A stretch of DNA of 63,237 bases from the NCBI GenBank assembly GCA_938084455.1, contig CALKDX010000023.1, forward strand, positions 1 through 63,237, in the 5' to 3' direction. A program made the position numbers and the translations under genes. The notes under the pieces are model-generated. The model did not search any database, was not told the origin of the DNA, and saw only the letters and a list, made by a program, of their open reading frames with translations. This document shows positions 15 through 44,379 of the stretch, piece after piece. Origin of the DNA: Candidatus Poseidoniaceae archaeon (GTDB taxonomy: Archaea > Thermoplasmatota > Poseidoniia > Poseidoniales > Poseidoniaceae). Position 1 is the stretch's first letter, and each line of letters opens with the position of its first letter.

Positions 15-1079
15 TCATTCCTCTTCAAAATTCCAAAAGGATTCTTTTTCTGGTTCTTCAATATGGCCTATATCATCAAGATGCGAATCAAAATCAGGAA
101 GTTCATGCTTCCAACCGCCTGGCAATTTGGTTTTGTCTTCGATGATCTTCAACATGCGTTCTTGCCAAGCTTTTGGCTTTCGTTGCAAAATGTATGAGTA
201 AAGAACAGATGTCCGGATTTCTTCGTGCATGACGGTGTATCCTGTGGAAGCTTCAAAATTCATAGCACGAAGGAGATTGAATGCAGGGCGGTTGACATTT
301 CGGAACATGCGTCGACTGAAGCGCATACCGATTAGTACCGTTGCAAAGATAAGAAGTGTAGTGAGGCAAAAGCCTCCCCACCCCTGTTCAACAAACCTGT
401 TGGAGTACAACACTTCGAGAAGAAGCACTGGAACAGTTGTGATCATGAAGAGAAAACTCTCAGAAACGGGAGGCTTGTTCATTTTCATTTCAATGGCCCC
501 CCAGCCATTGTGGTGTTTTTCCCATGGTTTGAAAAATTCAGCACTGTCTTGCATTGATGCTGCCATGACCATTTTATGCAATTGTCCAATCTTTGCATAT
601 TGTTGGCCACTGACGTCCATGTTTTCCTCAGTGATGGCCTCGAGTCTGTACTTTGCTTCAGTGTACATCCCCATGTCCGCTAGGAGAGTCGCTTGTTCAA
701 CCAGCGGTGTGACTTCATATGGCATGTGATGTCGGAGTTGCTGCCACCAATCAAGCGCTTCATTCAGCAACCCCAGTTCATCGCTTAACAACCGTCCACC
801 AAGGAACCACATTGCCGTGCGGTCTGGCTCAAGTGCAATGATTTTCTTCACTGCCGCAAGAGATTTCGCAGCTTCCTTGAGTGTTGGACTTTGGCCTTTT
901 TTTGGCAGTGCTGATTCAGCACATAATTGCCAGGCATCGACGTGTTTCGGGTCAGCCTCCACGGCTAATCGGGCCGAGGCATAGGCTGCCTCAAGGTCCC
1001 CTTCGTCATAGGCTTCTACTGCGTCGAGGTAGTGATCTTCTGCACCCATCCCGACACACCTCATCGATTGCTCGATCAA
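15..1079 (-). CDS. TPR-like protein with two transmembrane helices, function unknown
   Basis: 354-aa ORF. N-terminal helical-repeat region (DAVEAYDEGDLEAAYASARLAVEADPKHVDAW). Two hydrophobic helices (FLFMITTVPVLLLEVL, FCLTTLLIFATVLIG). TTG at 1079 overlaps the upstream stop (TTGA); alternative ATG starts at 1064 and 1049. Ends -NFEEE, and its stop overlaps an ATG (18..16) of a further minus-strand gene that leaves the window. Confidence 0.6.
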   Translation of the reverse strand: MIEQSMRCVGMGAEDHYLDAVEAYDEGDLEAAYASARLAVEADPKHVDAWQLCAESALPKKGQSPTLKEAAKSLAAVKKIIALEPDRTAMWFLGGRLLSDELGLLNEALDWWQQLRHHMPYEVTPLVEQATLLADMGMYTEAKYRLEAITEENMDVSGQQYAKIGQLHKMVMAASMQDSAEFFKPWEKHHNGWGAIEMKMNKPPVSESFLFMITTVPVLLLEVLYSNRFVEQGWGGFCLTTLLIFATVLIGMRFSRRMFRNVNRPAFNLLRAMNFEASTGYTVMHEEIRTSVLYSYILQRKPKAWQERMLKIIEDKTKLPGGWKHELPDFDSHLDDIGHIEEPEKESFWNFEEE

Positions 1080-2389
1080 TCCTCTTTATCTCTGCCCATC
1101 AAGTCACGAGGGGGTCGGTTGTGAGCGTGTCCAGAGCCTTTACCGCGTGATTTACGGAATTCTCTAGGTTCCCTTCGGGGGGGGCGTGAATCTTCACCGC
1201 GTGGTTCACGTCGAGGAGGTCGTCCTTGGGCTCGGTCATGTGCGTCCCTGTCGCCGCCACCAAACCTGTCGCCGCCACGTCGGTCACCGCCACGTCGGTC
1301 GTTTCCACCAAACCTGTCGCCACCTCTTCGGTCACCACCACGTCGGTCGTTTCCACCAGACCTGTCGCCACCTCTTCGGTCGCCGCCACGTCGATCATCT
1401 CGGCGTGGCCCTCTGCTCTGGCCACCACTTCGGGGGGCACCACATCGGTTGCATTCTTGACGGAATGCGAAGTTTGAGTTGTTGCATTGTGGACAATCCC
1501 AGTCGTTGTCGTTGAAAATTTCACCACCACGTCGGTCGTTTCCTCTTCGGTCACCGCCACGTCGGTCGTTTCCACCAAACCTGTCGTTGCCTCTTCGGTC
1601 GCCACCGCGTTGATTGCGGTCTTGGAATGAACGTCGGTCGTCACGGCGTGGAGGTCGTCCCCCAGCGCCGCCGGCTTTTGGAGCACCGCACTTGTTGCAT
1701 TCCGTTCGCCAAGCAAAGTTGTCATTGTGGCACTTAGGGCAATCCCAGTCGCCATCTTTTCGATTGCTTGAGCGGTCGTTTCTCTCAAAGCGACCACCTC
1801 GTTGTTCACGGCCTTGGAACCCTCGGTCGTGCGATCTGCCTCCGCTGTTTCCTCTTGGTTCACCGCATCGGTTGCATTCATGACGGAAAGCGAAATTGTT
1901 GTTGTTGCATTTTGGACAATCCCAATCGCCACCATTGTTTGAGCGATTGTTTCGATCAAATCCGCCACCTCTGTCGTTTCGTTCAAATCGGCCACCGCGG
2001 TCGTTTCCTCTTCGGTCACCGCCGCGGTCGTTGTGTCGTCGGTTCTCGCGGTTGTTGTCGCGCCCCCGATCGCCAAAGTTTCGTTCTTCACGAACTTTTT
2101 TCGGACGAATGTTGACCTGAATTCCAACTAAGCCAGGAATGTCGAGTTTTCGATCGAGATGTGCAACGTGAACGAGCGGAGCGTTCGTGTTGCCTAACAC
2201 TGCGTCAACCTTTCCAATGTAATCGCCTGTGTCTTGGTTGATGATGATTGATTCTAGAGCTGGGGAGGAGCCAGTAAAGGACACCAACAGGCCACCTTCG
2301 TGACTCAAAGACTCAACGGTGCCTGCAAACATTACACTCACTCTCAATTTGGTGGGCCGACCTTCCCCTCTTGAGGGTGCCGGTAACAC
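1076..2389 (-). CDS. Gar1-like H/ACA RNP domain fused to an RGG/RD-rich region with three RanBP2-type zinc fingers
   Basis: The N-terminal ~80 aa (nt ~2099-2332) match the Gar1 pattern G.V.....G.L.V...P.L.S......IGKVD.VLG....P.V.V....LVG. Three exact W-x-C-x2-C-x3-N-x6-C-x2-C fingers follow: DWDCPKCNNNNFAFRHECNRCG (~1856-1930), DWDCPKCHNDNFAWRTECNKCG (~1679-1753) and DWDCPQCNNSNFAFRQECNRCG (~1433-1507). They are embedded in (G)GDRRG / RGG repeats. Start is either GTG 2389 or ATG 2332. Confidence 0.75.
   Translation of the reverse strand: MLPAPSRGEGRPTKLRVSVMFAGTVESLSHEGGLLVSFTGSSPALESIIINQDTGDYIGKVDAVLGNTNAPLVHVAHLDRKLDIPGLVGIQVNIRPKKVREERNFGDRGRDNNRENRRHNDRGGDRRGNDRGGRFERNDRGGGFDRNNRSNNGGDWDCPKCNNNNFAFRHECNRCGEPRGNSGGRSHDRGFQGREQRGGRFERNDRSSNRKDGDWDCPKCHNDNFAWRTECNKCGAPKAGGAGGRPPRRDDRRSFQDRNQRGGDRRGNDRFGGNDRRGGDRRGNDRRGGEIFNDNDWDCPQCNNSNFAFRQECNRCGAPRSGGQSRGPRRDDRRGGDRRGGDRSGGNDRRGGDRRGGDRFGGNDRRGGDRRGGDRFGGGDRDAHDRAQGRPPRREPRGEDSRPPRREPREFRKSRGKGSGHAHNRPPRDLMGRDKED
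1240..1400 (-). repeat. In-frame tandem nucleotide repeats encoding GGDRRGGDRFGGNDRR units
   Basis: Near-identical ~48-nt units (cgtcggtcgtttccaccaaacctgtcgccacctcttcggtcacc...) recur at ~1290-1390 and again at ~1540-1600. They lie inside the Gar1-fusion CDS. Confidence 0.7.
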
Positions 2390-2390
2390 C

Positions 2391-4448
2391 TCACTCTTCT
2401 CTTCCTCTGTTGGTCATTGCAGCGCCAAGCAGAGCGACCGTCAAGGTGGCGAGCATTGATACTGCAGGTAGGCCTTCTTCGACGGTCGTACCACCGTCAT
2501 CAATGATCGGTTCGTCTGAATTTGCGTATGGGTCTGGAACTTGGACTTGCATGGTCGTCATTGTCCCTGATTCATCAGTGGCAACGAGCGTGATGTCATA
2601 GACGGTCACAGGTGGGTTTTGGGAGGAGCACGACACAATGTTGACATCGATTTCCCAAACGATTCCAGAGCGGACAAAGTCGTTGGTTGAGTATCCACAA
2701 AGGGAGAGGCTCATCTCAACGTCTTCACCATCTGGATCCAAAACCTTTCCAGCAATTGTGAATTTGAGGTAACTTGCATCCCAAGTAGCGTTTGATCCAT
2801 CAAGGTTCACATCCACTTCAATCACAGGTGGTGCGCTTGGTTTGTTCAAACCGAAATCGAGCATGAAATTGTAATCAAGCATGCCGTTTGACTGAGCCTG
2901 GCCCATCACCATGACTTCGCCAGGGGCGAGTCCATCAAGTGGGAGTGCAAGTGTGGAGGCTTCGGAGGCGAGCGTTGCCATTCGCATTTCACCCATCATG
3001 GTCATTTGGTGGGCATGGGCGCTGATCGAAAGTTCGCTCACCACGCCGGTTGGCGTCACCGTGAATTCAACGGAATCACCAGATTCGGAAATGGTTGCCT
3101 GTGAAGTGAACGGTTGAGCGAAAGTCCAGTTTCGCGTCTCAATTGAAGATGCACCAAATGGGTCAATAACGCTGCATTCCGCATCGGCCGTTGCGTCGGC
3201 GGCCACATCATTAGGGCCGTCCAAAAACAACGTGCCTTCTTCGTCCAGTCCAGCAGTCCATTGCCCAACCCATTCTTGGTTTGCAAATTGACAATCGAGG
3301 GCCCAACCGCTGTCGTCAGTGGCCCACAATTCGGTCACTTCGCCAGCAACAAGAGTTCGTGTACCCACGGTGTAAGGGATGACGGTTCCATCAACAGGTG
3401 CGTCTGCCGTCCATTCCGGGATTTCGTTCGTTTCGGGGGCTTGGGTTGTGAAATCCAAGAACAAGTTTCGCAGGATTGGATATTCGCTTGAAGCATAGTT
3501 CACTTCTTGACTGACACGAAGTCGACCGTCAGGTAGGTATTCAGCTTCCGGAAGGGGCATGGCGCTGCTCTCGACATTATCGTCTTGGATTGAAGAATTG
3601 ACCAAGCGAAGACCTTGCAGTTGTGGGAAGGTCAGCACCAAGGCAGCAGAACTCATGTTGGTGACGTTGAGGGCGAGCGTGAAGTTCGAAACACCGCTGT
3701 TTGGCAGTTGGTCAAAACGGACGTTGTTGTTTTCACCCTCTTTGGTGAACATGAGGATTTGGAGGTCATCTGTGATGCTTACAGGCACCTCTTTGCAATC
3801 GCTCGAGGCGAGAAGGTCTTGACAATCTCGCTCCTCTGGGTGGTTTTCAGGTACGAGGTTTACCTCGTCCAGTGCGATACCCTCCTTAACGAATTCAAGG
3901 TCGTTCCAATCGACCCCGCCACGGTGTGGTAGACCTTCGCGGATCCCGATTCGTGTGTCCATGTCAGCGATGCATTCAGGGCCAATGGCTCGAACCGCTT
4001 CTCGCTCATCGGTGCTCATCCAAGAGTTGTTTCCTCCGGGTGTTCCGTCAAACAACTCATCGAGGTTCTCACGCACGGTAGCGGAATTGCTGCCGTTCAC
4101 ATAGGCAACTGCGCTCATCTGAGCTGTTGCCCAATCGTCACCAAGAAGGATGTCAAAGGAAGCGAAATTATAGTCGAACAGGTCCTCAAATTTGTAACCG
4201 GTGCAGTCCACATCGAGTGAACCTTGTCGGGCACTGGTCGGGAATTCAGTTGGTTCTGAAATTGCTTTTTGGTTCGTTACAGCGGTGGAGGCGATCATCA
4301 TCAGGAACAGGACGATGATGCTCAAAGCGATTGAAGTCTGGGCGAAACGATGTCTTGCCATGCTTTCTGCGGTGATGTCTTGTCTCAAAGACACTTCGCC
4401 TCCATCGCAACCCAAAGCAGGGTATTTACAACATTCTTTGATGTCCAC
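2391..4448 (-). CDS. Large secreted or surface-anchored protein, function unknown
   Basis: 685-aa ORF. N-terminal signal anchor (MARHRFAQTSIALSIIVLFLMMIASTAV). Long acidic, Thr/Ser/Asn-rich ectodomain. C-terminal hydrophobic helix plus basic tail (LPAVSMLATLTVALLGAAMTNRGREE). GTG 4448 lies 1 nt after the permease stop; alternative ATG at 4361. Confidence 0.65.
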   Translation of the reverse strand: MDIKECCKYPALGCDGGEVSLRQDITAESMARHRFAQTSIALSIIVLFLMMIASTAVTNQKAISEPTEFPTSARQGSLDVDCTGYKFEDLFDYNFASFDILLGDDWATAQMSAVAYVNGSNSATVRENLDELFDGTPGGNNSWMSTDEREAVRAIGPECIADMDTRIGIREGLPHRGGVDWNDLEFVKEGIALDEVNLVPENHPEERDCQDLLASSDCKEVPVSITDDLQILMFTKEGENNNVRFDQLPNSGVSNFTLALNVTNMSSAALVLTFPQLQGLRLVNSSIQDDNVESSAMPLPEAEYLPDGRLRVSQEVNYASSEYPILRNLFLDFTTQAPETNEIPEWTADAPVDGTVIPYTVGTRTLVAGEVTELWATDDSGWALDCQFANQEWVGQWTAGLDEEGTLFLDGPNDVAADATADAECSVIDPFGASSIETRNWTFAQPFTSQATISESGDSVEFTVTPTGVVSELSISAHAHQMTMMGEMRMATLASEASTLALPLDGLAPGEVMVMGQAQSNGMLDYNFMLDFGLNKPSAPPVIEVDVNLDGSNATWDASYLKFTIAGKVLDPDGEDVEMSLSLCGYSTNDFVRSGIVWEIDVNIVSCSSQNPPVTVYDITLVATDESGTMTTMQVQVPDPYANSDEPIIDDGGTTVEEGLPAVSMLATLTVALLGAAMTNRGREE

Positions 4449-7325: not shown

Positions 7326-7375
7326 TTTAGGGCAGCCTAAACTATATGTATGGAGGGGATTTAGGGCGGCCTAAA
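7326..7375 (+). promoter_or_regulatory. Two copies of a 16-bp palindrome, TTTAGG-N4-CCTAAA; candidate metalloregulator operator
   Basis: TTTAGGGCAGCCTAAA (7326-7341) and TTTAGGGCGGCCTAAA (7360-7375) lie 34 bp apart. The first abuts a T-rich TATA-like stretch (7316-7329). Both are upstream of ATG 7391. Confidence 0.5.
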
Positions 7376-7390
7376 CCGGGGCGCAAAACC

Positions 7391-9508
7391 ATGCACACGA
7401 ACACGATAAAAACCCTGATCATGACCTTAATCATTGGAACCACAGCACTTGCAGGCTGTTTAGAAAATGAAGACGCTTCAAGCAATGACTCCAACCTTGA
7501 GTCGCTTGTTGTTGCCTTTAGCATCAAAGACGACTACACCAATGTTGATGAGAATCCTCAACGCTTTGCCGACTACCTCGGTCAGGCTCTCAACATGGAT
7601 GTTTCACTCTATCCGATCGATTCAGAGGGCGCTGCAATGCAAGCCCTTCGCTTCGGCAATGCTGACATCGCTTTCATGGATGGCGGAGCAGCGTGGGTTG
7701 GCTGGCAACAGTACGGCCTTGATGCTCTTGCAGCTGACCAAAAATCGGATGGAAGGACATACTACAGCGCACACGCTGTGGTTCTCAAGGACTCTGAAAT
7801 CGCTCAGGCCCACCTTGACGATGACCCCACAACAGACCCATTCTCATTGATGGCAGGCAAAACCTCGTGCCACACAGGCTGGCTCAAATCGGCAGGTATG
7901 CTCCTTCCAATGGGCTTCCTTATTGGCAACGGATATGCGAATGTGATCGGCGATGCGAATGATGTCGAATCTCTCCGCTCAACGATTACTAATTTCTTCA
8001 ATGAAGACGCAAGCATTCCAGACTCCGGAACACCGTACTACTCGTACAGTGGAGCTGTGAAATGCCTCTCTGAAGGTGTTGGCGATGTGGCCTTTGTTAA
8101 AGATTCCACGATTGCTTCTTACTGTGGAAACGAAGACGCATCCATAAACGAGGCTTGGTGCTTACCTGAATCGGATTACATCTTGCTTCCATCGTATGGA
8201 AACGCCCCATCACACCCGGTGATGTACAACCCGGATACTTCCGATGCAACCACAATGGCACTTGTTCAAGACGTGCTGGTTGACATGGCCAACACCGAGG
8301 ATGGCCAATCGATCCTCGAAAATGTATTGAACACCCCAGCTATTTCTGCAACCACTGCCGCCGAACACCTCTCTTCGTACGGCAACCTGATTGAAGACGT
8401 CCCTGGAATCTCTGCATACTACGACACTAAATTCTCGATTAACGATTCCATCGAGCCGACCATCTCGAACATCCGAATCGCCTTCGAAATGAAAGACGAT
8501 TATGAAAACCCAGCCGAGAATCCACAAGTCTTGGCTGATTTCATCGCAGAACAAACCGGAGTGACCGTTACGCTCTACCCAGTCGCTTCTGAAGGAGCAA
8601 TCATCGAAGCTCTCCGCTTCGGTAATGCAGACATCGCATTCATGGACGGCGGTGCTGCTTGGGTCGGTTGGAAAGAATACGGGCTTGCGGCAATGGCTGC
8701 TGACCTGAAGTCTGATGGGCGAACTCATTACGATGCACATGCCGTTGTTCTCAACGGCTCGGACATTGCCAATGCTTACCTCGATAACGATTCTTCCACT
8801 GATCCGTTTGCAATGATGGAAGGCAAGACTTCGTGCCACACTGGCTGGCTCAAATCAGCGGGCATGTTGCTTCCAATGGGCCACCTCATCTCCCAAGGCT
8901 ACGCTCCAGTCGTCGGACCGCAAGACGACATCGAATCATTGCGAGATACGATTACCTCTTTCTTTAACGAAAACGCAAGCATTCCCGAATCCGGAACACC
9001 GTACTCCTCCTATTCAGGAGCAGTCAAGTGTTTGACTGAAGGCGTTGGCGATGTGGCTTTTGCAAAGGACTCCACCGTTGCCTCTTACTGTGGCAATGAA
9101 GATGCAAGCGATAATGCGGATTGGTGTTTGCCGGAATCCGAGTACATCCTCTTGCCATCCTATGGATCTGCACCATCTCACCCCGTGATGTACAACCCAG
9201 CTACGCTTGATGTTCAAACGAGGACTGCAATCCTCAACGCTCTCTTGGCATTGAACAACGAGATGTACGTCGAGGACTATCCAATGCAAGGTCAGAATTA
9301 CACTGGATGCTACTCGATGGTTTCCCATCAAGTTGACTCGACTTCTCCACAAGAAGCATGTGGCGATCAAATCTTGTCCAATGTGTTGAACACGGGTGGC
9401 TTGGTTGAGGTCAACTCACAAGAACATCTTGGCAGCTACAGCAACCTCATCAGCGCCATTCCTGGCATCTCATCGTACTTCGATTCGAAGTATGAAATTG
9501 CGGAGTGA
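7391..9508 (+). CDS. Bilobal transferrin-like substrate-binding lipoprotein of an ABC importer
   Basis: Lipobox signal peptide (MHTNTIKTLIMTLIIGTTALAGC). Two homologous lobes each carry ADIAFMDGG, T(Y/H)Y.AHAVVL, GKTSCHTGWLKSAGMLLPMG, YSYSGAVKCL.EGVGDVAF.KDST and APSHPVMYNP, which parallel the transferrin ligand motifs. It is followed by PhnC/PhnE-type genes. Confidence 0.8.
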   Translation: MHTNTIKTLIMTLIIGTTALAGCLENEDASSNDSNLESLVVAFSIKDDYTNVDENPQRFADYLGQALNMDVSLYPIDSEGAAMQALRFGNADIAFMDGGAAWVGWQQYGLDALAADQKSDGRTYYSAHAVVLKDSEIAQAHLDDDPTTDPFSLMAGKTSCHTGWLKSAGMLLPMGFLIGNGYANVIGDANDVESLRSTITNFFNEDASIPDSGTPYYSYSGAVKCLSEGVGDVAFVKDSTIASYCGNEDASINEAWCLPESDYILLPSYGNAPSHPVMYNPDTSDATTMALVQDVLVDMANTEDGQSILENVLNTPAISATTAAEHLSSYGNLIEDVPGISAYYDTKFSINDSIEPTISNIRIAFEMKDDYENPAENPQVLADFIAEQTGVTVTLYPVASEGAIIEALRFGNADIAFMDGGAAWVGWKEYGLAAMAADLKSDGRTHYDAHAVVLNGSDIANAYLDNDSSTDPFAMMEGKTSCHTGWLKSAGMLLPMGHLISQGYAPVVGPQDDIESLRDTITSFFNENASIPESGTPYSSYSGAVKCLTEGVGDVAFAKDSTVASYCGNEDASDNADWCLPESEYILLPSYGSAPSHPVMYNPATLDVQTRTAILNALLALNNEMYVEDYPMQGQNYTGCYSMVSHQVDSTSPQEACGDQILSNVLNTGGLVEVNSQEHLGSYSNLISAIPGISSYFDSKYEIAE
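7507..9505 (+). repeat. Internal tandem duplication (lobe 1 ~7507-8470, lobe 2 ~8471-9505)
   Basis: Long runs are conserved at protein level and partly at nucleotide level, e.g. ggcaaaacctcgtgccacacaggctggctcaaatc vs ggcaagacttcgtgccacactggctggctcaaatc. Confidence 0.85.
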
Positions 9509-28542: not shown

Positions 28543-29130
28543 ATGGTCAAAGGATGCCCTGCATTTGTTCTCGCAGCGGGAGCAAGCGTTCGTTTGGGTC
28601 AGCCTAAGGCCTTGGTTCCTGTTGCTGGTACGACCCTTGTGGGTCTTGCAGTTCGTCGCTTGATTGCAGCGGGATGTTCTCCTGTGTACGTCATTACGAG
28701 GCAGTCGTTACAATTTGAAGTGATGCTTCAATGCGAAGGAGCCACTGTTGTGGTCAACAAAGATCCTGAACAAGGGCGAACGGGCACCTTGCAACAGGGC
28801 CTCCTTGCTGCGATGGGTGACACAGGACGCCTCCCTCGCCGAGTGATCATCGCTCCTGTGGACCGCCCAGGATGGGATGTGACGCATGTCAGGCAATTGC
28901 TGGGCCAAAGCACAACTTCGACTTTATCATGCAATGGGAAGCTCGGTCACCCTTTGATTGTCCATTCTCCCGATGTTGAAGCAGTGCTCGCAGCACCCCC
29001 TGAAACCCCACTGCGTGATCTTATTGCACCGGACTATGTTGAGGTCAATGCCCCTCATTTGAGCCTTAACATCGACACTCGAGAAGATCTTACGCTCCTC
29101 GCATCCATTGATTTTGAAGTGGATTTTTGA
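28543..29130 (+). CDS. MobA/MocA-like molybdenum-cofactor nucleotidyltransferase
   Basis: N-terminal LAAGASVRLGQPKAL motif. About 195 aa. Adjacent to an XdhC-family gene. Confidence 0.7.
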   Translation: MVKGCPAFVLAAGASVRLGQPKALVPVAGTTLVGLAVRRLIAAGCSPVYVITRQSLQFEVMLQCEGATVVVNKDPEQGRTGTLQQGLLAAMGDTGRLPRRVIIAPVDRPGWDVTHVRQLLGQSTTSTLSCNGKLGHPLIVHSPDVEAVLAAPPETPLRDLIAPDYVEVNAPHLSLNIDTREDLTLLASIDFEVDF

Positions 29131-29180
29131 GCATCTTGCCATGACGGAAATGGTATGAGTGAGCGCCTCGAGGGAGGGGC

Positions 29181-30050
29181 ATGACTGCAGCAGTTCTGGC
29201 TTGGGCTTTGGCCCAAATCGAATGCGGTCACAAAGTGGTCATGGCGAGCGTGGTTGAGACCTCGGGTAGCGTTCCGGGAAAGGTTGGGGCTCGCCTTGCC
29301 ATGCGTTCTTCAGATGAAACATGGGTCGGCACAGTCGGCGGTGCAGGGCTTGAAATGATGGTTTTGAAGCGCAGCCGATCGATGCTGAATGAGCATTATC
29401 TTCCAGCAGGTGAGGTCATCACTTTCGGACTGAATAAAGGGGCGAAGGGCTATGAAGTGACGCCCTTAGATTCGCTCTGTGGGGGTCGAGTGACCCTCAG
29501 TTTGGAGGTTCTTGTCCCAATGCCACACGTGTTGCTCATCGGCGGAGGCCATTGCGCTCAAGCCATTGCTCCGGCTTTGGATGCATTGGGTTGGTCCCAT
29601 TCCATCCATGATACTCGAGAAGATTTCTGCAACCCAGAGACATTTCCAAACGCAAACCACCACCTCCACATGGACATTGATTCCTTTGTTGGCCACCACT
29701 CTGCAGAGGTGTTATCACAGTATTCTGATGTGCTTTTCCTCGGCCATGATTGGTCAGAAGATCAAACAAGATTGCTCGGTATGCTCACCTGCTTACAGGC
29801 TCAAGGTGCTCTTATGAACGGTCAAGATGCTCCCCGCATCGGAGTGATTGGTAGCCGTTCAAAGTGGAAAGCCTTCGAGAAAGCAGCCAAAGGGATTGGC
29901 GTGACAGAAGGCACCCTTGAGCAAGTGATCTGCCCGATTGGTGTTCACATTGGTGCGGAAACCCCACAGGAAATCGCCGTTGCTGTCGTCGCCCAAATCT
30001 TGGCATCCTACAAGGGCGTCAATCCATCGGAGCCAACCTGGCGGGATTGA
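29181..30050 (+). CDS. XdhC/CoxI-family molybdoenzyme maturation factor
   Basis: N-terminal XdhC_CoxI-like segment (VVETSGSVPGKVGARLA) plus a C-terminal Rossmann-like half (LLIGGGHCAQAI). Confidence 0.7.
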   Translation: MTAAVLAWALAQIECGHKVVMASVVETSGSVPGKVGARLAMRSSDETWVGTVGGAGLEMMVLKRSRSMLNEHYLPAGEVITFGLNKGAKGYEVTPLDSLCGGRVTLSLEVLVPMPHVLLIGGGHCAQAIAPALDALGWSHSIHDTREDFCNPETFPNANHHLHMDIDSFVGHHSAEVLSQYSDVLFLGHDWSEDQTRLLGMLTCLQAQGALMNGQDAPRIGVIGSRSKWKAFEKAAKGIGVTEGTLEQVICPIGVHIGAETPQEIAVAVVAQILASYKGVNPSEPTWRD

Positions 30051-30597: not shown

Positions 30598-30668
30598 GCT
30601 TCTTGCACAGAGAGCCGGTTCTTCAATCCGGCGTAGGGTTCATTTGCAACCGGCTGAGACGCAATCAC

Positions 30669-32036
30669 ATGGCAGATGCTGCGGATGTGATTCTTGAGGC
30701 AGCTGGGCGGTCGATCGATAGTATGACGAGGAAACAACTGATTGCAGTCACCCTCGCAACCCTTCTTGTGGTGTCAATTGTGGCAGGTTTGTCGTTCTTT
30801 AGCACCGATTCATCTGAAACAAAAACCAGTGCCGTCTTTGGCGGGGAAGATGGCTGGCGAGCCTATTCCGTTGTCGCACCAATCGACACTGGAATCAATG
30901 TCTACCACGATCATTTTCGTACCAATGACACCTACCCTCAATGGCTTCAGGATGGCCTTGGGGTTAACCGGGTCTGTGACCTAACCTTTGAAGGGACATG
31001 GCAAGAGCGCTATGATGCAGACAAAGAAGCGTGTTGGGACACCCTCACCGCCAGTGACATTGTGTACTTCCCCGGCACAAAAATCATCGGCACTTCGCCG
31101 GATGGAGACAGTGACATCCTCATTCTTGACGATCCCTCCGATGGACACGGGTCTGCCGTCACCGGGGCGGTGTTGGACGCCAATCCAATGGCAGTGATCT
31201 TCTTTGTCGAAGGCTTCTCTTCTGAAGCCGTTCAGGCGGCTGCTGACCAACCGCTTGTTGACATCTTGACAACCTCGTTTGGTGCACCAGGCTCAGTTCC
31301 AGTTCCCGGAATTGAAAGGGCGACAGAATCAGCCGTGGTCGAATTCAACAAGATTCACACAGGTGCAGCAGACAACAGCCCTTCGCCAGCAGTGCAAGAC
31401 GCCACAGCGGGTCCGCCTTGGTCGATTGGCATCGCAGGGTATGCTGAGGAAGGGGACGACCAAAAAGAAATCATGTCGGGCTCTTATCCAGATATTTCTG
31501 CAGATTGGACTCAAGTTTTACCAAATCACGATGACATCGATGGCTACCATGAAACATCAGGGACATCGTTTGCAACCCCTCGCACAGCAGGCATACTCTC
31601 TTTTGTCCTCGAATCGTTACGAGAGGAATACAATGATCCATCTTCCGGAGCTTCTCCGGATGTGCGTTCGGGACTTCTTGTGAACGGGACCGATGACGCA
31701 GGAATGAGTTTCTCAATCTCGAACGCACAAGTGCGTGAAGCCCTCAACCTCTCAGCTTGGTATCCTGACCTCGGCTGGGACCCAACCTCTGGGACCATGC
31801 CCATTTCTCCTGTTGCACCTTGTATGCAAACGGGTTGGGGCCTCGTTAATTTATCAAACATTGAACCGATCATCAAGCATTTGAACGGCTCAGAGGCTCT
31901 TCCTGATCGACCTGCTGATGTGGTCGCATGCATGGATCTTAACCAACAAGCAAGGGAAGCCTATTGGGCAGCCTACCCTTCAGCACCGGGTGAAATTTAC
32001 ATCACTGGTGGCGAAGGAACGAGGGTCAAGGATTGA
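30669..32036 (+). CDS. Subtilisin-like (S8) serine protease, membrane-anchored or secreted
   Basis: Catalytic triad motifs APIDTGI, DGHGSAVTG and SGTSFATPRTAG. Signal anchor LIAVTLATLLVVSIVAG. Start could be 30669 or 30723. Confidence 0.75.
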   Translation: MADAADVILEAAGRSIDSMTRKQLIAVTLATLLVVSIVAGLSFFSTDSSETKTSAVFGGEDGWRAYSVVAPIDTGINVYHDHFRTNDTYPQWLQDGLGVNRVCDLTFEGTWQERYDADKEACWDTLTASDIVYFPGTKIIGTSPDGDSDILILDDPSDGHGSAVTGAVLDANPMAVIFFVEGFSSEAVQAAADQPLVDILTTSFGAPGSVPVPGIERATESAVVEFNKIHTGAADNSPSPAVQDATAGPPWSIGIAGYAEEGDDQKEIMSGSYPDISADWTQVLPNHDDIDGYHETSGTSFATPRTAGILSFVLESLREEYNDPSSGASPDVRSGLLVNGTDDAGMSFSISNAQVREALNLSAWYPDLGWDPTSGTMPISPVAPCMQTGWGLVNLSNIEPIIKHLNGSEALPDRPADVVACMDLNQQAREAYWAAYPSAPGEIYITGGEGTRVKD

Positions 32037-35000
32037 TCATTGAGGTTCAAAGTTTAGAATCACTTCTCCACGAGGTCCAAAGGCAACCACGGGTTTGAAC
32101 CCTTCATGTGGAGTTGAGTCAATAGAGGCAAGGATCGTGTTGAACATGTCGTCCGGTAGTTCGATCTCAAAACCATGTTCAGTTTGAACCCGTTCCTTTG
32201 TGAGGACCGGCGGAGGAATCTCAAGTTCTGCTTCAACCGGCTCTTGTGTTGTTTCGACGGCTTGTTCGCCCTCTGGTTCAATTTCTTCCTCTTCTTTGAT
32301 TTCTTCAATGTCCTCTTCATCGTCTTTTTCAATCGATTCAACTTCAGTTGGCTCAGGATGGGTTTCAGAATCGACCACAACAAGGGCCTCGTTTGAAACT
32401 TCGACTTCAGGCGTGTAAAGTGCATTCGAGTCCCCTAGCCGACTGCTGCTCATGAAAATCCAACCAATGGTGACAATGGCACCCAACATGTAACCGATAT
32501 TGACAATGGTCTCACTCACAAACGAGAGGGTGTTAGCCGTTGCAAAGGTCATGATGATTGAGCCATAACCTCCGACAACTCGCCTCCATCGTGCATCGAA
32601 TTCAGGGGAGTAGCCTTGGATTCCCACACCAACCAACACCACAGTGGTCAATGAAAAGGCAAGTGTTGTCCACGTATCTCCACCATTAAAGATCAGGAAT
32701 ATACTGGTAATCATCGTTCCGACACCAACCAAACCAATGCGGTCCATGAACTCAAAGAACGTCTGATCTGAACCCCAATCAAATGCCTCGTGGTCGTAGA
32801 CAGCATCGTTCTTAATCGACAGCACTGTGAAGCCAACTCCTTCAGCCAGAAGAACCAATCCAATGGCCAAATCAAACAAGTCGGTCGGCAGGATATCAGA
32901 TTGAATCAAAAAGTTATAGAGCGCTAGGCCATGGACCAATGGGGCAAACAATGTTAGGTTGAAGAGGCCTCTTGAAACGACTGTCCTTGTTAACAACGCA
33001 GCACCAATGATGGTGCCTGCTCCCCACATGACAGAGATGCTGAATGCCAGGCCGAGGTAGCCAATAATCTGGAACTGCTCATTCAATTGTTCTCTGTCCT
33101 CGTCAGTCTTCAGGTTAGGTATGGTTAACATGGTTGGTTCAGGCATCTCTTTGTCCTTGTTCGCGTGCATGATGCCATTTTCATGCAAGGCAGAGTAAAG
33201 CATCGCGGTAACACCGGTGATGAACACGCTCCATGAAAACACATCCAAATCACTGAGCGTGTTATCGGTGCCACCAAGAGCGATAGAAAGGGAAACACAC
33301 TCTGCGATAAGAAGAAGCGATAGGAATTGAACCTGGCCATTGTACCATGAATTCAACATCAAAACAACCGTGAAGAACAACGGTGTCCATTGGAACCAGT
33401 CCAACTCAGGGAACATGCTCATCAGGCCAATTGCCAACCACGCCCAAGTTCCGATCCATGGCAGTGATTTCTTGATTTTCTTGGCACTGGGCAACAGTTG
33501 GGCCAGAAGAATATAGCTCATTTGAAGGGTTAGGAGCAATCCAGATGCCGCAGACAGTCCAAACATTCCGGAAGTCGATGAGGCTTGCTCCAGCAATTCA
33601 ATCCGTTCGGTTAACAGCCGTCCAATTCCGTTCAATTCAAGCCAATTATTTGCATTGAAAATCAAGACCACTGGGGCAACCATCAAGGCGATATTTTGGC
33701 GATGCTTGACCGAATAATAAGTGACCAATGCCAGCATTGGGATCATCAGCAATCCACCCGAAGTGTCAAGGCAAGCAAGGGCGATTAAACCAATCATTGC
33801 ATACAAGTCAGCTCTCGCTGAGATTGCATCCTTGTCAAGGCCTCGCTTAGAAATCGCCCAAGCGACGATAAACGGTGCTGAAACAAGCATGAGGTCCAAC
33901 AATAACATGCCGGGGAGGAAATTTTTGTCGAGGTATTCGGGATCGCCTTCCATCATAAATCGGTAACCATTGAACACAAGCGAAGGTGCCAGACCAACGG
34001 CAAAGAGCAACCACACTGCTGCCGCCCTTGCCTTGGAACTGATTGTTTTGAGTGCTAAGATTTCCCACACCAAACAAGCGATTGGAACTGCGAGCAACAC
34101 GAGGATGTAAGGGGCCTTCACGAGGTCCTGTGCTTCAGTTTCGCCAAGGAAAGAAGTTGCCACAAACATGCTACTGCTCATCATAATAAGCGGTACAATC
34201 ATTGAAACCCGGCTCAATGGACTCCATGAATACTTCTCGACAAATGCCTCCTCGTCCTCTTCGAAAGAGGGGGTTTCAATCCATGTATTGGTCGATGGAT
34301 CATATTGCGGGGCACCACTGACCATGCTTCCAGTCCATGAAAACAGCATACCGAGATCGAACTCTTTCTCCCTTCCATTAAGGAGCATTCCATAGGACAG
34401 GGCGGCGAAGAAAAACACGTGGAGTTTGTAATCGCGGAAGATGAGCGCTTCCGGGATTTGTATGGCCTCGAAGAGCACCAAGGTCACAACAACTGCATTG
34501 GCCAATAACGAACGCAGGCTCGCATCCCACCGGCTTTGCAGCGATGATTTTTCATCGAGGTTGGAAAATCCAGTCCTCGCAAGGTAGAGCAGGTAAATCA
34601 CGAAGGCCCAAGTGGTGTACCACTCCTGGGTGCCGATGACGGCTCGAGAAAGGGCGACGCTGGCAATCACCAACATATGGACATACAAATCCGTTTTCTG
34701 TTTTCGTTGGGAAAACTCTGAGATGGTGATGAGGGCCAAGGGAATCAAGAAATGGAGGCCGCTTAATCCGAATGTTTCAGTTTGGGCGATGCCCATCTCC
34801 CAAGCGTAAAGATCCACAACGAGGTAGGCGACGGCCGCCATTCCAAGCGTTGCATTTGCGACCCATTTACGAGTGGCTTTGGAAATCAAAAGCATGTAAG
34901 GTAAGATTGCAACCGTGATGATCCAAGGGATTGCGCTCTCTGAATTTGGGATGATCATCAATGCAAATGCCAAGCCGATTGGAATCCACGGCAGGCGTTG

Positions 35001-36143: not shown

Positions 36144-36262
36144 CCGTTTCCACTGAACAAAGACGCCCTTTGGCAGCCATGGAGAAGCGCGGTGCCACCC
36201 TCAGTCATTTCTTCAATGGATTCAAAAAGTGGCAGTGGTTGGTACGTCCACGAGGCGTTGCT

Positions 36263-39992: not shown

Positions 39993-40595
39993 ATGGTAGG
40001 CACCGAACACGTTGAAATGATCCCTGTCGCGAAGAAGGAAATTTGGTCTGCAGAGGTCAACGGAAGGCCTGTTGAAATCCTGGCTCCATCGAACGCAGTT
40101 TTGCTCGATGTGTTGCGCGATGAAGTCGGAACACTTGGTGTCAAACGAGGGTGTGATTTGGGAACTTGCGGATGCTGTACCGTCATGATTGACGGCACGC
40201 CACGGCTCTCCTGCCTTTGTTTAGCCGGGCAAGTTGAAGGCTCTTCCATCATCACCGTCGAAGGTTTGGCTGATGGAGCACACCTCGCCCCTATCCAATC
40301 TTGTTTCGCAGAACATGGCGGTTCGCAATGTGGTTTTTGCACACCTGGTTTCCTTGTGACAGCACAAGCGCTGTTGAATGAAAACAGTGCACCCACCAAC
40401 GATGAAGTGGCACTAGCGATCGAAGGAAACTTGTGCCGATGCACTGGTTATCAACAAATCATCGATTCAATTCAAGCGGCAGCCGCCATTCACCGAGGTG
40501 AAGCCGAACCAGCACCACCGGCAAGCAATCCACACCCCGATCCACATCCGAGCGGGCCTGAAGAACCACAAATGCCTCCGGGCCACGCAAGGTGA
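39993..40595 (+). CDS. [2Fe-2S]-binding small subunit of a xanthine-dehydrogenase-family molybdoenzyme
   Basis: Motifs GCDLGTCGCCTV and CGFCTPGF...CRCTGY. Pro-rich C-terminal extension. Confidence 0.9.
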   Translation: MVGTEHVEMIPVAKKEIWSAEVNGRPVEILAPSNAVLLDVLRDEVGTLGVKRGCDLGTCGCCTVMIDGTPRLSCLCLAGQVEGSSIITVEGLADGAHLAPIQSCFAEHGGSQCGFCTPGFLVTAQALLNENSAPTNDEVALAIEGNLCRCTGYQQIIDSIQAAAAIHRGEAEPAPPASNPHPDPHPSGPEEPQMPPGHAR

Positions 40596-43405: not shown

Positions 43406-44379
43406 TGTTGATGCCTCCTTTTACCCTCCACCATCCAACATCCGTTGATGCTGCATGTGAATTAGCAGCGCAATTAATGGGTGCAGGAGAAGCCTTTGAT
43501 TGGGTTGCTGGTGGAACAGATTTGCTGCCCAATTACAAGTGGCACATCAATCCAAAGCCCCACGTCATCTCCTTGGCGAAGATTGGCGGAACATCCACAA
43601 TCTCGGGTTCAGAAATGGGCTGTATGGTCCGGCTTGCGGACATCACTGAAGAAAATGGAGCTCACCCTGTTGTGGTCCAAGCCGCTTCCAAAGTCGCTTC
43701 CTCATTGGTTCGAACCAACGCCACACTTGGCGGGAATTTGTGCCTCGACACTCGATGTTTCTGGTACAACCAAGGTGAAGATTGGCGTCGTTCAATCGAT
43801 TGGTGCCACAAAGCAGATTGTGGCACAGGTGCAGATTGCCGCGTCATCCCAAACCAAAACACCCTCTGTGTCGCAACCTATCAAGGCGACATTGCGCCAA
43901 CGCTGATGGTGCTCGGGGCCAGCGTTCATCTCATCGGCCCTAACGGTGCGAGAACACTGCCAATCGAATCCTTTTACCAACTCGATGGTATGAAAAAGAA
44001 CGTGCTTGAAGAAGGCGAATTCCTTCTCAAAGTCACCCTCCCTGAAGATGCAGCCACGCGCACTGGTTCGTATCAAAAACTCAGGGTTCGAGATTCGTGG
44101 GATTTCCCAGAAGCAGGCGTAGCAGCCTCTTGGGTCGCAGGTGACCCATCATCGCTACGAATTGCAACCACGGCGCTTGAATCAATTCCCCGCACCCATC
44201 CTGAACAAGTCGAAGAGGTCCTGAAGCCTGGCTGGGAGGGCGTTGATTCAGTCAAAGCACTTTCAACAGCGGTTCAAAAGAGCGTCAAACCAGTCAACAA
44301 CACTGCTTTACCACCTCGTTACCGCCGTTCAATGGTGCGTGTGTTGACCAAGAGAGCCGTCCAAGGTTTGCTGGAGTGA
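43402..44379 (+). CDS. FAD-binding medium subunit (CoxM/XdhB-like)
   Basis: AGGTDLLP motif and TLGGNL. Its ATG overlaps the large-subunit stop (ATGA). Confidence 0.85.
   Translation: MMLMPPFTLHHPTSVDAACELAAQLMGAGEAFDWVAGGTDLLPNYKWHINPKPHVISLAKIGGTSTISGSEMGCMVRLADITEENGAHPVVVQAASKVASSLVRTNATLGGNLCLDTRCFWYNQGEDWRRSIDWCHKADCGTGADCRVIPNQNTLCVATYQGDIAPTLMVLGASVHLIGPNGARTLPIESFYQLDGMKKNVLEEGEFLLKVTLPEDAATRTGSYQKLRVRDSWDFPEAGVAASWVAGDPSSLRIATTALESIPRTHPEQVEEVLKPGWEGVDSVKALSTAVQKSVKPVNNTALPPRYRRSMVRVLTKRAVQGLLE

What the first reader, a model, noticed from the sequence alone, without database searches (positions are those of the whole stretch)
1076..2389. Gar1 core fused to an RGG-rich region with three RanBP2-type zinc fingers
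Archaeal Gar1 is normally a ~75-100-aa beta-barrel protein. Here a Gar1-like core (aa ~20-97) is followed by ~340 aa of RGG/GDRRGG/RFERNDR repeats. These are interrupted by three perfect W-x-C-x2-C-x3-N-x6-C-x2-C fingers (GDWDCPKCNNNNFAFRHECNRCG and two more). The fingers closely resemble the ssRNA-binding RanBP2 fingers of ZRANB2 and FUS/EWS/TAF15. Glycine-arginine-rich flanks are the hallmark of eukaryotic Gar1, and RGG-ZnF-RGG is the FET-protein arrangement. Both features are regarded as eukaryotic. An H/ACA pseudouridylation subunit with an appended low-complexity RNA-binding module is unexpected in an archaeon.
Basis: partly seen in the sequence, partly recalled or inferred. Interest (0 to 1): 0.8.

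Follow-up and report, generated by a model that had tools for sequence, protein, structure and literature searches.

The report
Archaeal Gar1 with RGG–zinc-finger tail
A marine archaeon (Poseidoniales, Marine Group II) encodes a divergent Gar1, normally a small ~100-residue subunit of the RNA-guided pseudouridine synthase, that carries a ~340-residue disordered arginine/glycine-rich tail with three FUS/ZRANB2-type RNA-binding zinc fingers; this eukaryote-like design is conserved across the order and I found no paper describing it.

Summary
The ORF at 1076..2389 (-) exists, but its true start is probably Met20 (ATG 2332), giving 418 aa.

- **N-terminal domain.** It is a divergent Gar1. It falls below the Pfam cutoff (15.8-21.9 vs 29.3 bits). 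A family profile nevertheless hits P. furiosus Gar1 first in PDB (E 2e-5), hhalign against canonical Gar1 gives 95% probability, and an AlphaFold model (pLDDT 87) matches Gar1 structures first (TM 0.71/0.81).
- **Zinc fingers.** The three RanBP2 fingers are unambiguous (Pfam E 2e-26). All FUS GGU-contact positions are conserved across 194 fingers of the clade.
- **Linkers.** They are disordered and R/G/D/N-rich. This is a mixed-charge composition, not a classical GAR domain.
- **Not a chimera.** 136 species genomes encode a relative. All 80 examined are Poseidoniales; 75 show at least one finger and 51 show the complete in-frame gene with 1-4 fingers.
- **New points.** There is an invariant C-terminal motif (FRKxRGKxxGHAHNRPP). 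The family also forms a series from canonical-size, fingerless forms to forms with up to five fingers.

Most likely it is the H/ACA Gar1 subunit with an appended ssRNA-capture or RNA-chaperone module. Cbf5 binding and the absence of a second gar1 were not tested. Verdict: new variant of a known kind; interest about 0.65.

The parts
1076..2332 (-). Preferred CDS of the Gar1-RGG-ZnF protein (418 aa, from Met20 ATG at 2332 to TGA at 1078-1076). The mechanical ORF extends to a GTG at 2389.
   Evidence: ORF. All homologs begin at MF.G, and the upstream 19 residues are not conserved.
2090..2332 (-). Gar1 core: six-stranded beta-barrel (aa 1-81).
   Evidence: AF2 pLDDT 87-92. Foldseek top hits are Gar1: 2ey4_D, 2hvy_B, 3u28_C, 7trc_D. 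Profile vs PDB gives E 2.3e-5 to Pfu Gar1. hhalign gives 95%. Pfam PF04410 is sub-threshold in 12/12 members.
1937..2089 (-). Linker 1, disordered and R/G/D/N-rich (aa 82-132; GDRRGNDRGGRFERNDRGGGFDRNNR).
   Evidence: pLDDT < 50; composition.
1844..1936 (-). RanBP2-type zinc finger 1 (aa 133-163; NGGDWDCPKCNNNNFAFRHECNRCGEPR).
   Evidence: Pfam PF00641; pLDDT ~93; motif.
1760..1843 (-). Linker 2 (aa 164-191), disordered.
   Evidence: pLDDT < 50.
1667..1759 (-). RanBP2-type zinc finger 2 (aa 192-222; KDGDWDCPKCHNDNFAWRTECNKCGAPK).
   Evidence: Best Pfam stretch. Best PDB match is the FUS ZnF 6g99_B, E 2.9e-7. pLDDT ~93.
1511..1666 (-). Linker 3 (aa 223-274), GDRRGNDRFGGNDRRGG repeats.
   Evidence: pLDDT < 50. 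One 16-aa unit is absent in L003.
1424..1510 (-). RanBP2-type zinc finger 3 (aa 275-303; NDNDWDCPQCNNSNFAFRQECNRCGAPR).
   Evidence: Pfam; PDB match to the ZRANB2 finger 2k1p_A; pLDDT ~93.
1160..1423 (-). Linker 4 (aa 304-391), the longest GDRRGG/GDRFGGNDRRGG array followed by PPRREPR repeats. It contains a 48-nt x 2.9 tandem DNA repeat at 1257-1393.
   Evidence: TRF; pLDDT < 50; copy-number difference to L003.
1109..1159 (-). Conserved C-terminal motif FRKSRGKGSGHAHNRPP (aa 392-408), function unknown.
   Evidence: Present in frame at the C-terminus of 51/80 genome loci, with G-H-A-H-N and the final P (near-)invariant. Also invariant or near-invariant columns in A4.
2391..4448 (-). Upstream neighbour: 685-aa predicted secreted/membrane protein with no Pfam hit. 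It ends 1 nt before the GTG of the mechanical ORF.
   Evidence: The same neighbour occurs in L001, L082-L084.
15..1049 (-). Downstream neighbour: ~345-aa TPR-like membrane protein (probable ATG at 1049, 27 nt after the gar1 stop).
   Evidence: Faint TPR hits in the L084 homolog. Conserved position in L001, L082-L084.

Best explanation
The gene encodes the Gar1 subunit of the Poseidoniales box H/ACA pseudouridylation RNP. In this order it has acquired a long 'beads-on-a-string' C-terminal extension: three (1-5 across the clade) independently folded RanBP2-type zinc ribbons of the single-stranded-RNA-binding FUS/ZRANB2 class, joined by disordered R/G/D/N-rich linkers and ending in a conserved short motif. 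Inferred mechanism: the barrel docks on Cbf5 next to the thumb loop, as canonical Gar1 does, where it controls substrate loading and product release but does not touch RNA. The tail adds multivalent, low-specificity (RGG) plus GGU-type (finger) affinity for single-stranded RNA right at the substrate entry side. This would capture or unfold rRNA substrates, or tether the RNP to pre-ribosomal RNA, a role analogous to the accessory RNA-binding role proposed for RGG domains. Shown here: domain identities, order, disorder, conservation and distribution. Inferred: Cbf5 binding, RNA binding and its specificity, and the effect on pseudouridylation.
For: Gar1 identity:
- Fold match to archaeal and eukaryotic Gar1 in Cbf5 complexes (2ey4_D E 5.5e-4, TM 0.71/0.81, rmsd 2.2 A), from a confident model (pLDDT 87).
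- Family profile against PDB: the top six hits are all Gar1.
- hhalign 95% probability, E 3e-8, over the whole core.
- All 12 clade members hit PF04410 as their best family.
- JGI independently labels members 'rRNA processing protein Gar1'.

Ortholog-like continuum: an exhaustive HMMER search found only 118 representatives. They run from 93-aa canonical-size forms, through ~160-aa basic-tailed fingerless Thalassarchaeaceae forms, to forms with up to five fingers.

Fingers:
- PF00641 E 2e-26.
- Best solved relatives are the RNA-binding fingers of FUS, ZRANB2 and RBM10.
- In 194 fingers, D, N-x-N-[F/Y], R and C-N-x-C are invariant. These correspond to FUS D425, N435, F438, R441 and N445, which contact GGU (PMC12344763).

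Other support:
- The module is exclusive to this family: 108 of 110 tail-search hits carry the Gar1 core.
- Architecture: four folded units with pLDDT ~88-93 and linkers below 50.
- Canonical Gar1 contacts Cbf5 helix 5 and beta7/thumb loop, not the guide RNA (PMC3443816).
Against: - The core fails the curated cutoffs of Pfam PF04410 (15.8-21.9 vs 29.3 bits) and NCBIfam Gar1 (13.5 vs 107), so it is a strongly diverged Gar1.
- Nothing in the window or in syntenic loci links it to cbf5, nop10, L7Ae or guide RNAs. Its conserved neighbours are membrane or secreted proteins.
- I could not check whether these genomes also hold a canonical short gar1. The only attempt reached Thermococcales alone.
- Cbf5-contact residues could not be mapped.
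- The linkers are much more acidic than eukaryotic GAR domains.
Confidence: 0.72

Rival explanations
1. It is a Gar1-fold paralog rather than the catalytic-RNP Gar1. One version is a Naf1-like assembly/escort factor that occupies the Gar1 site on Cbf5. Another is an H/ACA-independent RNA-binding or RNA-chaperone protein that merely reuses the small barrel, with a canonical gar1 encoded elsewhere.
For: The core is below every curated Gar1 threshold. The Naf1 Gar1-domain also appears among the fold hits (2v3m, rank 23, TM 0.59). The gene sits in a conserved, tightly packed cluster with membrane or secreted proteins, not RNP genes. A unique conserved C-terminal motif suggests a partner not known for Gar1. 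The absence of a second gar1 was not established.
Against: Gar1 proper outranks Naf1 in fold similarity (TM 0.71 vs 0.59). The family grades into canonical-size forms (93-102 aa) with only short basic tails, like ordinary archaeal Gar1. Thermococcales Gar1 also has a short basic C-terminal tail, so the Poseidoniales tail looks like an elaboration of an existing feature. From my own knowledge, not tested here, Naf1 is known only from eukaryotes.
Confidence: 0.2
2. It is an assembly chimera or frameshift artefact: a short gar1 joined to unrelated repeat or eukaryotic sequence, or a eukaryotic contaminant.
For: The repeat region breaks assemblies. 29 of 80 related loci are truncated, N-filled or frameshifted inside it. 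L001 and L002 (long polished contigs) carry frameshifts there.
Against: 51 of 80 independent species-level genome assemblies contain the uninterrupted gene, with the core, 1-4 fingers and the same C-terminal motif in one frame, flanked by the same archaeal neighbours. L003 reproduces the window gene end to end, differing by two exact 16-aa unit deletions. Contigs of 0.2-2 Mb span the gene (L008, L011, L016). The window's frame runs intact into the conserved C-terminal motif.
Confidence: 0.01
3. The fingers are protein-binding (ubiquitin/NZF-like or Ran-like) or DNA-binding modules rather than RNA binders, so the tail recruits proteins rather than RNA.
For: RanBP2-type fingers include protein-binding classes such as Nup153, RanBP2, Npl4 and MDM2. 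Weak PDB hits to Nup153, RanBP2 and MDM2 are present.
Against: The strongest solved matches are RNA-binding fingers (FUS 2.9e-7, ZRANB2 9.5e-6 and 9.7e-5, RBM10 2.2e-4), compared with Nup153 1.9e-4 and MDM2 0.19. All GGU-contact positions are invariant in 194 fingers. From my own knowledge of the Npl4 and Nup153 finger structures, the positions after the second Cys are N-[SN]-N-F rather than the T-F of NZF ubiquitin binders or the L-V of Nup153 Ran binders. Archaea have no Ran system.
Confidence: 0.07

Closest known systems
Archaeal Gar1 (e.g. Pyrococcus furiosus PF1791; PDB 2EY4, 2HVY)
   Same: The same six-stranded barrel (TM 0.71/0.81, rmsd ~2 A). Homologous at profile level. A short basic C-terminal tail already exists in Thermococcales Gar1.
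   Different: Only ~21% identity, and below the Pfam and NCBIfam cutoffs. Canonical proteins are 90-112 aa, whereas this one is 418 aa with three zinc fingers, about 250 residues of disordered R/G/D-rich linker, and a novel conserved C-terminal motif.
Eukaryotic GAR1 (yeast Gar1p, human GAR1)
   Same: A Gar1 core flanked by arginine/glycine-rich low-complexity sequence. The literature contrasts this feature with archaeal Gar1 (PMC8096250). The fold matches 3u28_C, 7trc_D and 9yfl.
   Different: Eukaryotic GAR domains sit on both sides of the core, are nearly acid-free, and contain no zinc fingers. Here the extension is C-terminal only, mixed-charge (43 D, 16 E), and interrupted by RanBP2 fingers. 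It most likely has an independent origin.
FET proteins (FUS/EWS/TAF15) and ZRANB2
   Same: RGG-ZnF-RGG arrangement. The finger sequence is very close (DWDCPKCHNDNFAWRTECNKCGAPK vs FUS [27 protein letters not shown]). All GGU-contact positions are conserved. ZRANB2 likewise has tandem fingers.
   Different: No RRM, no SYGQ prion-like domain and no PY-NLS (Pfam finds none). The fingers are attached to an RNP enzyme subunit rather than an hnRNP or splicing factor. It is archaeal.
Naf1 (eukaryotic H/ACA assembly factor with a Gar1 domain)
   Same: A Gar1-fold domain embedded in a much longer, largely disordered protein. It appears in the fold hits (2v3m).
   Different: Lower structural similarity than Gar1 proper, no zinc fingers, and known only from eukaryotes.
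Other archaeal RanBP2-like zinc ribbons (e.g. Sulfolobus ArnA N-terminus)
   Same: A four-Cys zinc ribbon described as RanBP2-type in an archaeon (PMC6509490).
   Different: A single finger in a signalling protein, without the RGG context. Whether it carries the N-x-N-F-x-x-R RNA-contact signature was not tested here.

Membership tests
Gar1 (H/ACA RNP subunit; Pfam PF04410, COG3277) | Six-stranded beta-barrel Gar1 fold | tested here: met
   AF2 model with pLDDT 87 and six strands. The top Foldseek PDB hits are Gar1 chains from archaeal, yeast, insect and human H/ACA RNPs; the best is 2ey4_D at E 5.5e-4, TM 0.71/0.81.
Gar1 (H/ACA RNP subunit; Pfam PF04410, COG3277) | Scores above the curated family cutoff (Pfam gathering 29.3 bits; NCBIfam NF009632 107 bits) | tested here: not met
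   15.8 bits for the whole protein, 20.3 bits for the core alone, and at best E 2e-4 among 12 members. 17-22 bits in divergent members. NCBIfam 13.5 bits.
Gar1 (H/ACA RNP subunit; Pfam PF04410, COG3277) | Statistically significant profile-level homology to bona fide Gar1 | tested here: met
   The A2 profile against PDB gives Pfu Gar1 2hvy_B at E 2.3e-5, and the six best hits are all Gar1. hhalign of A2 against Thermococcales Gar1 gives 95% probability, E 3e-8, over 69 columns.
Gar1 (H/ACA RNP subunit; Pfam PF04410, COG3277) | Binds Cbf5 near the thumb loop and is part of the H/ACA RNP | not testable with these tools
   No multimer modelling or biochemistry is available. No cbf5, nop10 or L7Ae gene lies in the window or the syntenic loci.
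Gar1 (H/ACA RNP subunit; Pfam PF04410, COG3277) | Is the (single) Gar1 ortholog of its genome | tested here: inconclusive
   The search with canonical Pfu Gar1 reached only Thermococcales. Indirect support comes from the family grading into canonical-size forms and from JGI naming members Gar1.
RanBP2-type zinc finger, ssRNA-binding subclass (PF00641; FUS/ZRANB2/RBM5/RBM10 type) | W-x-C-x2-C-x3-N-x6-C-x2-C signature, above the Pfam cutoff | tested here: met
   Three exact matches and none in shuffles. PF00641 scores 91.3 bits against a cutoff of 27, with three stretches.
RanBP2-type zinc finger, ssRNA-binding subclass (PF00641; FUS/ZRANB2/RBM5/RBM10 type) | Conservation of the GGU-contacting residues (FUS D425, N435, F438, W440, R441, N445) | tested here: met
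   In 194 fingers: D 194/194, N 194/194, F/Y 194/194, R 194/194 and N 194/194. The W440 position is F, W or R. Contacts are taken from PMC12344763.
RanBP2-type zinc finger, ssRNA-binding subclass (PF00641; FUS/ZRANB2/RBM5/RBM10 type) | Compact zinc-ribbon fold (two beta-hairpins) | tested here: met
   Each finger is predicted with pLDDT ~93 and paired short strands. This is a prediction only.
RanBP2-type zinc finger, ssRNA-binding subclass (PF00641; FUS/ZRANB2/RBM5/RBM10 type) | Actual zinc and ssRNA (GGU) binding | not testable with these tools
   Requires biochemistry.
Eukaryotic GAR / RGG domain | Dense RGG/RG repeats in an intrinsically disordered segment | tested here: met
   13 RGG and 22 RG. 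R+G make up 43% of the 337-aa tail. Linker pLDDT is below 50.
Eukaryotic GAR / RGG domain | G/R/F-dominated composition, essentially free of acidic residues | tested here: not met
   43 D + 16 E = 17.5% of the tail. The typical unit is GDRRGG/RFERNDR, a mixed-charge composition.
FET family (FUS/EWS/TAF15) | RGG-ZnF-RGG combined with an RRM, an N-terminal SYGQ-rich domain and a PY-NLS | tested here: not met
   Only the RGG-ZnF-RGG element is present. Pfam finds no RRM, and the N-terminus is a Gar1 barrel. It may work like a FET C-terminal half but is not a member.

The most novel reading that the evidence does not exclude
The multivalent RGG-finger tail makes the Poseidoniales H/ACA RNP a scaffold for an RNA-dependent condensate or pre-rRNA-tethered 'proto-nucleolar' assembly in an archaeon outside Asgard. 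The RGG-ZnF(RanBP2)-RGG RNA-binding grammar of FET proteins and the GAR extension of eukaryotic Gar1 would then have arisen convergently here, or the fingers would have been captured from planktonic eukaryotes by HGT. The invariant C-terminal FRKxRGKxxGHAHNRPP motif would be a docking peptide for a still unknown partner, possibly linked to the conserved flanking membrane-protein genes.
Probability: 0.15. Interest if true: 0.85.

Novelty: new variant of a known kind. Interest (0 to 1): 0.65.

Why it matters
The field describes archaeal Gar1 as a minimal barrel that never touches RNA, and treats RGG extensions as a eukaryotic addition (PMC8096250). Here an entire, globally abundant order of marine archaea has built a large RGG-plus-zinc-finger RNA-binding array onto Gar1, apparently independently of eukaryotes.

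- It offers a natural experiment on what low-complexity RNA-binding tails do for H/ACA RNPs, for example in substrate capture, RNA chaperoning or condensation.
- It is a prokaryotic, genetically simple example of the FET-type RGG-ZnF-RGG module.
- It fixes annotation. Public records call these proteins 'hypothetical' or 'zinc finger protein', and curated Gar1 models miss them, so automated surveys may score Poseidoniales as lacking Gar1.
- The repeat array also breaks MAG assemblies at this locus, which matters for completeness estimates.

Tried and rejected
- **A1 profile against PDB sequences.** The narrow 12-sequence profile found no Gar1. Only the broadened 25-sequence profile (A2) did.
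- **Search for a second, canonical gar1 in Poseidoniales.** The query was the P. furiosus Gar1 core. The word-indexed search returned only Thermococcales, so it says nothing about Poseidoniales. No tool here scans a named genome in full.
- **Rfam and tRNA scans of the window.** Nothing was found, so there is no H/ACA guide RNA or other RNA gene nearby.
- **Pfam annotation of about 40 window genes.** They are transport and metabolism genes, with no functional link to RNA modification.
- **Published Gar1-Cbf5 contact residues.** The papers describe the Cbf5 side (helix 5, beta7, thumb loop) but give no Gar1 residue list I could map.
- **Assembly chimera or eukaryotic contamination.** Rejected on 51 intact independent assemblies with archaeal synteny.
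- **Ubiquitin-type or Ran-type finger function.** Rejected as the leading reading on contact-residue conservation and the ranking of PDB hits.
- **Alternative-frame 342-aa ORF (1099..2127).** It is a by-product of the repeat composition.
- **Literature.** I found no paper that describes a Gar1/RanBP2 fusion or discusses Gar1 in Poseidoniales.
Full report
**1. Observation**

The window contains the 437-aa ORF at 1076..2389 on the minus strand.

- Pfam finds three RanBP2-type zinc fingers (PF00641, 91.3 bits, E 2.1e-26, cutoff 27). It gives only a sub-threshold Gar1 match (PF04410, 15.8 bits, cutoff 29.3).
- NCBIfam's Gar1 equivalog is far below its cutoff.
- A six-frame scan of the whole 63-kb window finds exactly three matches to W-x-C-x2-C-x3-N-x6-C-x2-C, all in this ORF. 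Thirty shuffled windows gave none.
- The tail (337 aa) has 79 R, 65 G, 43 D, 35 N and 16 E, with a net charge of +28. The protein has 13 RGG and 22 RG.
- A 48-nt tandem DNA repeat at 1257-1393, with 92% matches, underlies the last GDRRGG array.
- All homologs start at 'MF.G' and the preceding residues are not conserved. The real start is therefore most likely Met20 (ATG 2332), giving 418 aa.

**2. Is the N-terminal domain Gar1?**

A search with the core alone returned 43 proteins. Those that carry a source name are from Poseidoniaceae or marine 'Euryarchaeota'/Thermoplasmatota. Many are cut at contig ends, and several continue into an R/G stretch and a RanBP2 finger.

- Each of 12 diverse members hits PF04410 as its best family, but always below the cutoff (best E 2e-4).
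- A narrow profile (A1) did not find Gar1 in PDB sequences.
- An exhaustive HMMER search with A1 against 1.84 billion representatives found only 118 relatives.
- I added the divergent relatives to make a 25-sequence core profile (A2). The best PDB sequence hits then became P. furiosus Gar1 (2hvy_B, E 2.3e-5; also 3mqk, 2ey4, 2rfk), followed by yeast and human GAR1.
- hhalign of A2 against 12 Thermococcales Gar1 proteins (A3) gives 95% probability, E 3e-8, over 69 columns that span the whole barrel.
- An AlphaFold2 model of the core (pLDDT 87, six strands) matches Gar1 chains first in the PDB. The best are 2ey4_D (E 5.5e-4, TM 0.71/0.81, rmsd 2.2 A) and 2hvy_B, then insect, yeast and human GAR1 in H/ACA and telomerase RNPs.
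- The Naf1 Gar1-domain and the generic barrels of F1-ATPase rank lower.

Conclusion: this is a genuine but strongly diverged Gar1 domain that curated models miss.

**3. The fingers**

- The best solved relatives are the RNA-binding fingers of FUS (6g99_B, E 2.9e-7), ZRANB2/ZNF265 (1n0z, 2k1p) and RBM10. Nup153, RanBP2 and MDM2 are weaker.
- Across 194 fingers collected from 80 related genomes plus the window, the consensus is D-W-[DET]-C-P-[KQ]-C-x-N-[SN]-N-F-[AS]-[FRW]-R-x-E-C-N-[RK]-C-G-x-P-[RK].
- D, W, the four Cys, both N of N-x-N, F/Y, R, and the N of C-N-x-C are invariant.
- These positions correspond to FUS D425, N435, F438, R441 and N445, and the W440 position is F, W or R. PMC12344763 identifies these residues as the GGU contacts.
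- From my own knowledge of the Npl4 NZF and Nup153 structures, the T-F (ubiquitin) and L-V (Ran) signatures after the second Cys are absent.
- The full-length AlphaFold model, built on a 31-sequence alignment (A4), is beads on a string. The barrel (1-81) has pLDDT ~88, and the fingers (133-163, 192-222, 275-303) have pLDDT ~93. All linkers are below 50, and the C-terminal motif is not confidently structured.

**4. Real gene, or chimera?**

A scan of one genome per GTDB species found 136 genomes with a relative. The best 80 are all Poseidoniales, Poseidoniaceae or Poseidonia MAGs, including the 2.06-Mb MG-II chromosome CM001443.1 and contigs of 0.2-0.8 Mb.

- Translating from the match start, 75 of 80 show at least one finger.
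- 51 of 80 are uninterrupted genes of 294-532 aa with 1-4 fingers. They end in the same motif: [FY]-R-[KR]-[AS]-[RK]-G-[KN]-x-x-G-H-A-H-N-[RQ]-[PG]-P.
- The other 29 stop at contig ends, N-runs or frameshifts inside the repeats, so the array is an assembly hazard.
- L003 has a core 98% identical to the window's. It reproduces the window gene end to end, with two deletions of exactly one 16-aa unit each.
- L002 aligns end to end but is 34 nt longer, and so is frameshifted near the 3' end.
- L001, a 468-kb polished contig, has the same locus with a frameshift, one finger and the same C-terminal motif.
- The window's own frame runs intact into the conserved C-terminal motif.

The chimera and contamination readings are rejected.

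**5. Distribution and evolution**

- A search with the tail alone gave 243 hits at E below 1e-5; those among the top 120 that carry a source name are Poseidoniales or marine 'Euryarchaeota'. Of the 110 new proteins, 108 carry the Gar1-like core, and the other two are a fragment and a frame-disrupted call. Finger counts run from 1 to 5. This RGG-finger module was therefore found only on this Gar1 family.
- Public names are 'hypothetical protein', 'zinc finger protein' or 'zinc finger Ran-binding domain-containing protein' at NCBI, and 'rRNA processing protein Gar1' at JGI.
- The wider family forms a series:
  - 93-102-aa canonical-size forms with a short basic tail;
  - ~155-167-aa forms with long basic R/K/S/G tails and no finger (Thalassarchaeaceae, MGIIb);
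  - MGIIb forms with one degenerate zinc ribbon (WVCSACRSMNSRTSKCSKCG);
  - forms with 1-5 canonical fingers (mostly Poseidoniaceae, MGIIa).
- Thermococcales Gar1 also has a short basic C-terminal tail.
- This pattern fits an orthologous Gar1 lineage that elaborated its tail. It does not prove that no second gar1 exists.

**6. Context**

- The gene lies between a 685-aa secreted/membrane protein with no Pfam hit (2391..4448) and a ~345-aa TPR-like membrane protein (15..1049), all on the same strand with gaps of 1-57 nt.
- The same three-gene order holds for relatives whose cores are only ~44% identical (L082-L084). There the genes overlap by a few nucleotides.
- ABC transporter genes lie close to this cluster in all of these loci.
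- The rest of the window encodes transport and metabolism: riboflavin synthesis, ThiF/rhodanese, 2-oxoacid dehydrogenase E1, a CoxSML-type molybdoenzyme, MoxR/DUF58, an S8 peptidase and others. It has no H/ACA proteins, Rfam hits or tRNAs.

**7. Mechanism**

[quoted passage not shown] It modulates the thumb loop, substrate placement and product release.

Eukaryotic Gar1 adds RGG domains. [quoted passage not shown] The literature explicitly contrasts this with the archaeal protein (PMC8096250).

The most economical reading is that the Poseidoniales protein is the H/ACA Gar1. Its tail would supply multivalent ssRNA affinity close to the substrate channel, with GGU-type recognition from the fingers and degenerate affinity from the RGG linkers. 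That would help capture or unfold rRNA substrates, or tether the RNP to pre-rRNA.

- Shown: domain identities, order, disorder, conservation.
- Inferred: Cbf5 binding, RNA binding, functional effect.
- Confidence: about 0.72.
- Main rival (about 0.2): a Gar1-fold paralog, either Naf1-like or H/ACA-independent. It stays open because I could not scan a complete genome for a second gar1, and because of the odd conserved neighbourhood and the unexplained C-terminal motif.

**8. Comparison and novelty**

- It is a member of the Gar1 superfamily by fold and by profile homology, but it fails the curated cutoffs.
- Its fingers are bona fide PF00641 members of the ssRNA-binding subclass.
- Its linkers are RGG-like but too acidic to count as a classical GAR domain.
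- It resembles the C-terminal half of FET proteins (RGG-ZnF-RGG) but lacks the RRM, SYGQ domain and PY-NLS, so it is not a FET protein.
- RanBP2-like ribbons have been noted before in archaea, for example ArnA (PMC6509490), so the finger fold is not strictly eukaryotic.
- Searches for Gar1 with Poseidoniales, and for Gar1 with RanBP2 and archaea, found no paper describing this architecture.

Verdict: a new variant of a known kind. It is real, conserved across an abundant archaeal order, and so far noticed only by automated annotation. Interest: 0.65.

Noticed in passing
window 1109..1159 (-), aa 392-408 from Met20: The extreme C-terminus carries a conserved motif, [FY]-R-[KR]-[AS]-[RK]-G-[KN]-x-x-G-H-A-H-N-[RQ]-[PG]-P. 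It is present in frame in all 51 complete genes among the 80 genome loci. Degenerate versions (KGHH.S.R.P..PF) occur in divergent relatives. There is no confident predicted structure and no known function. It may be a docking peptide.
   Followed up: partly
window 15..4448 (-); L001, L082, L083, L084: A conserved, abutting or overlapping three-gene cluster: a ~630-685-aa secreted/membrane protein with no Pfam hit, then gar1-ZnF, then a ~330-350-aa TPR-like membrane protein. ABC transporter genes lie nearby in all these loci, and an AdoHcyase gene follows the TPR-like gene in L001, L082 and L083. This is an unexpected operon-like partnership for an RNP subunit.
   Followed up: partly
window 1257..1393; L002, L003, L001: A 48-nt tandem repeat (2.9 copies, 92% matches) encodes GGNDRRGGDRRGGDRF units. 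The closest relative, L003, differs by two exact 16-aa unit deletions. 29 of 80 related genome loci are truncated, N-filled or frameshifted inside the repeat array, so this gene is a recurrent breakpoint in MAG assemblies.
   Followed up: yes
window 1099..2127 (-): A 342-aa alternative-frame ORF overlaps the gene (T/A/V/E-rich translation). It is a by-product of the repetitive codon composition, not a gene.
   Followed up: partly
window 7346..9508 (+): A 720-aa protein combines a phosphonate-type periplasmic binding domain (PF12974) with Transferrin-family domains (PF00405, 4 stretches). ABC transporter ATPase and permease genes follow it, so it is possibly an iron-uptake system. Homologous neighbours occur in L001 and L082.
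   Followed up: no
window 32037..36143 (-) and 36170..38266 (+): A 1368-aa ORF with no Pfam hit at all lies next to a 698-aa S8 subtilase. A 477-aa ORF (30603..32036) also has no hit.
   Followed up: no
window 39993..45371 (+) and 28543..30050 (+): A CoxS/CoxL/CoxM-type molybdenum hydroxylase cluster ([2Fe-2S], MoCo-binding and FAD-binding subunits). XdhC and MobA-like maturation genes lie about 10 kb upstream.
   Followed up: no
P0139/P0140/P0142 (Thalassarchaeaceae members of the family): MGIIb versions of the protein carry a single degenerate zinc ribbon, W-V-C-x2-C-R-x2-N-S-[RK]-T-x-K-C-x2-C. It has one residue fewer between the Cys pairs and lacks the N-F-x-x-R RNA-contact signature. It could be either a decayed finger or an ancestral one.
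   Followed up: partly
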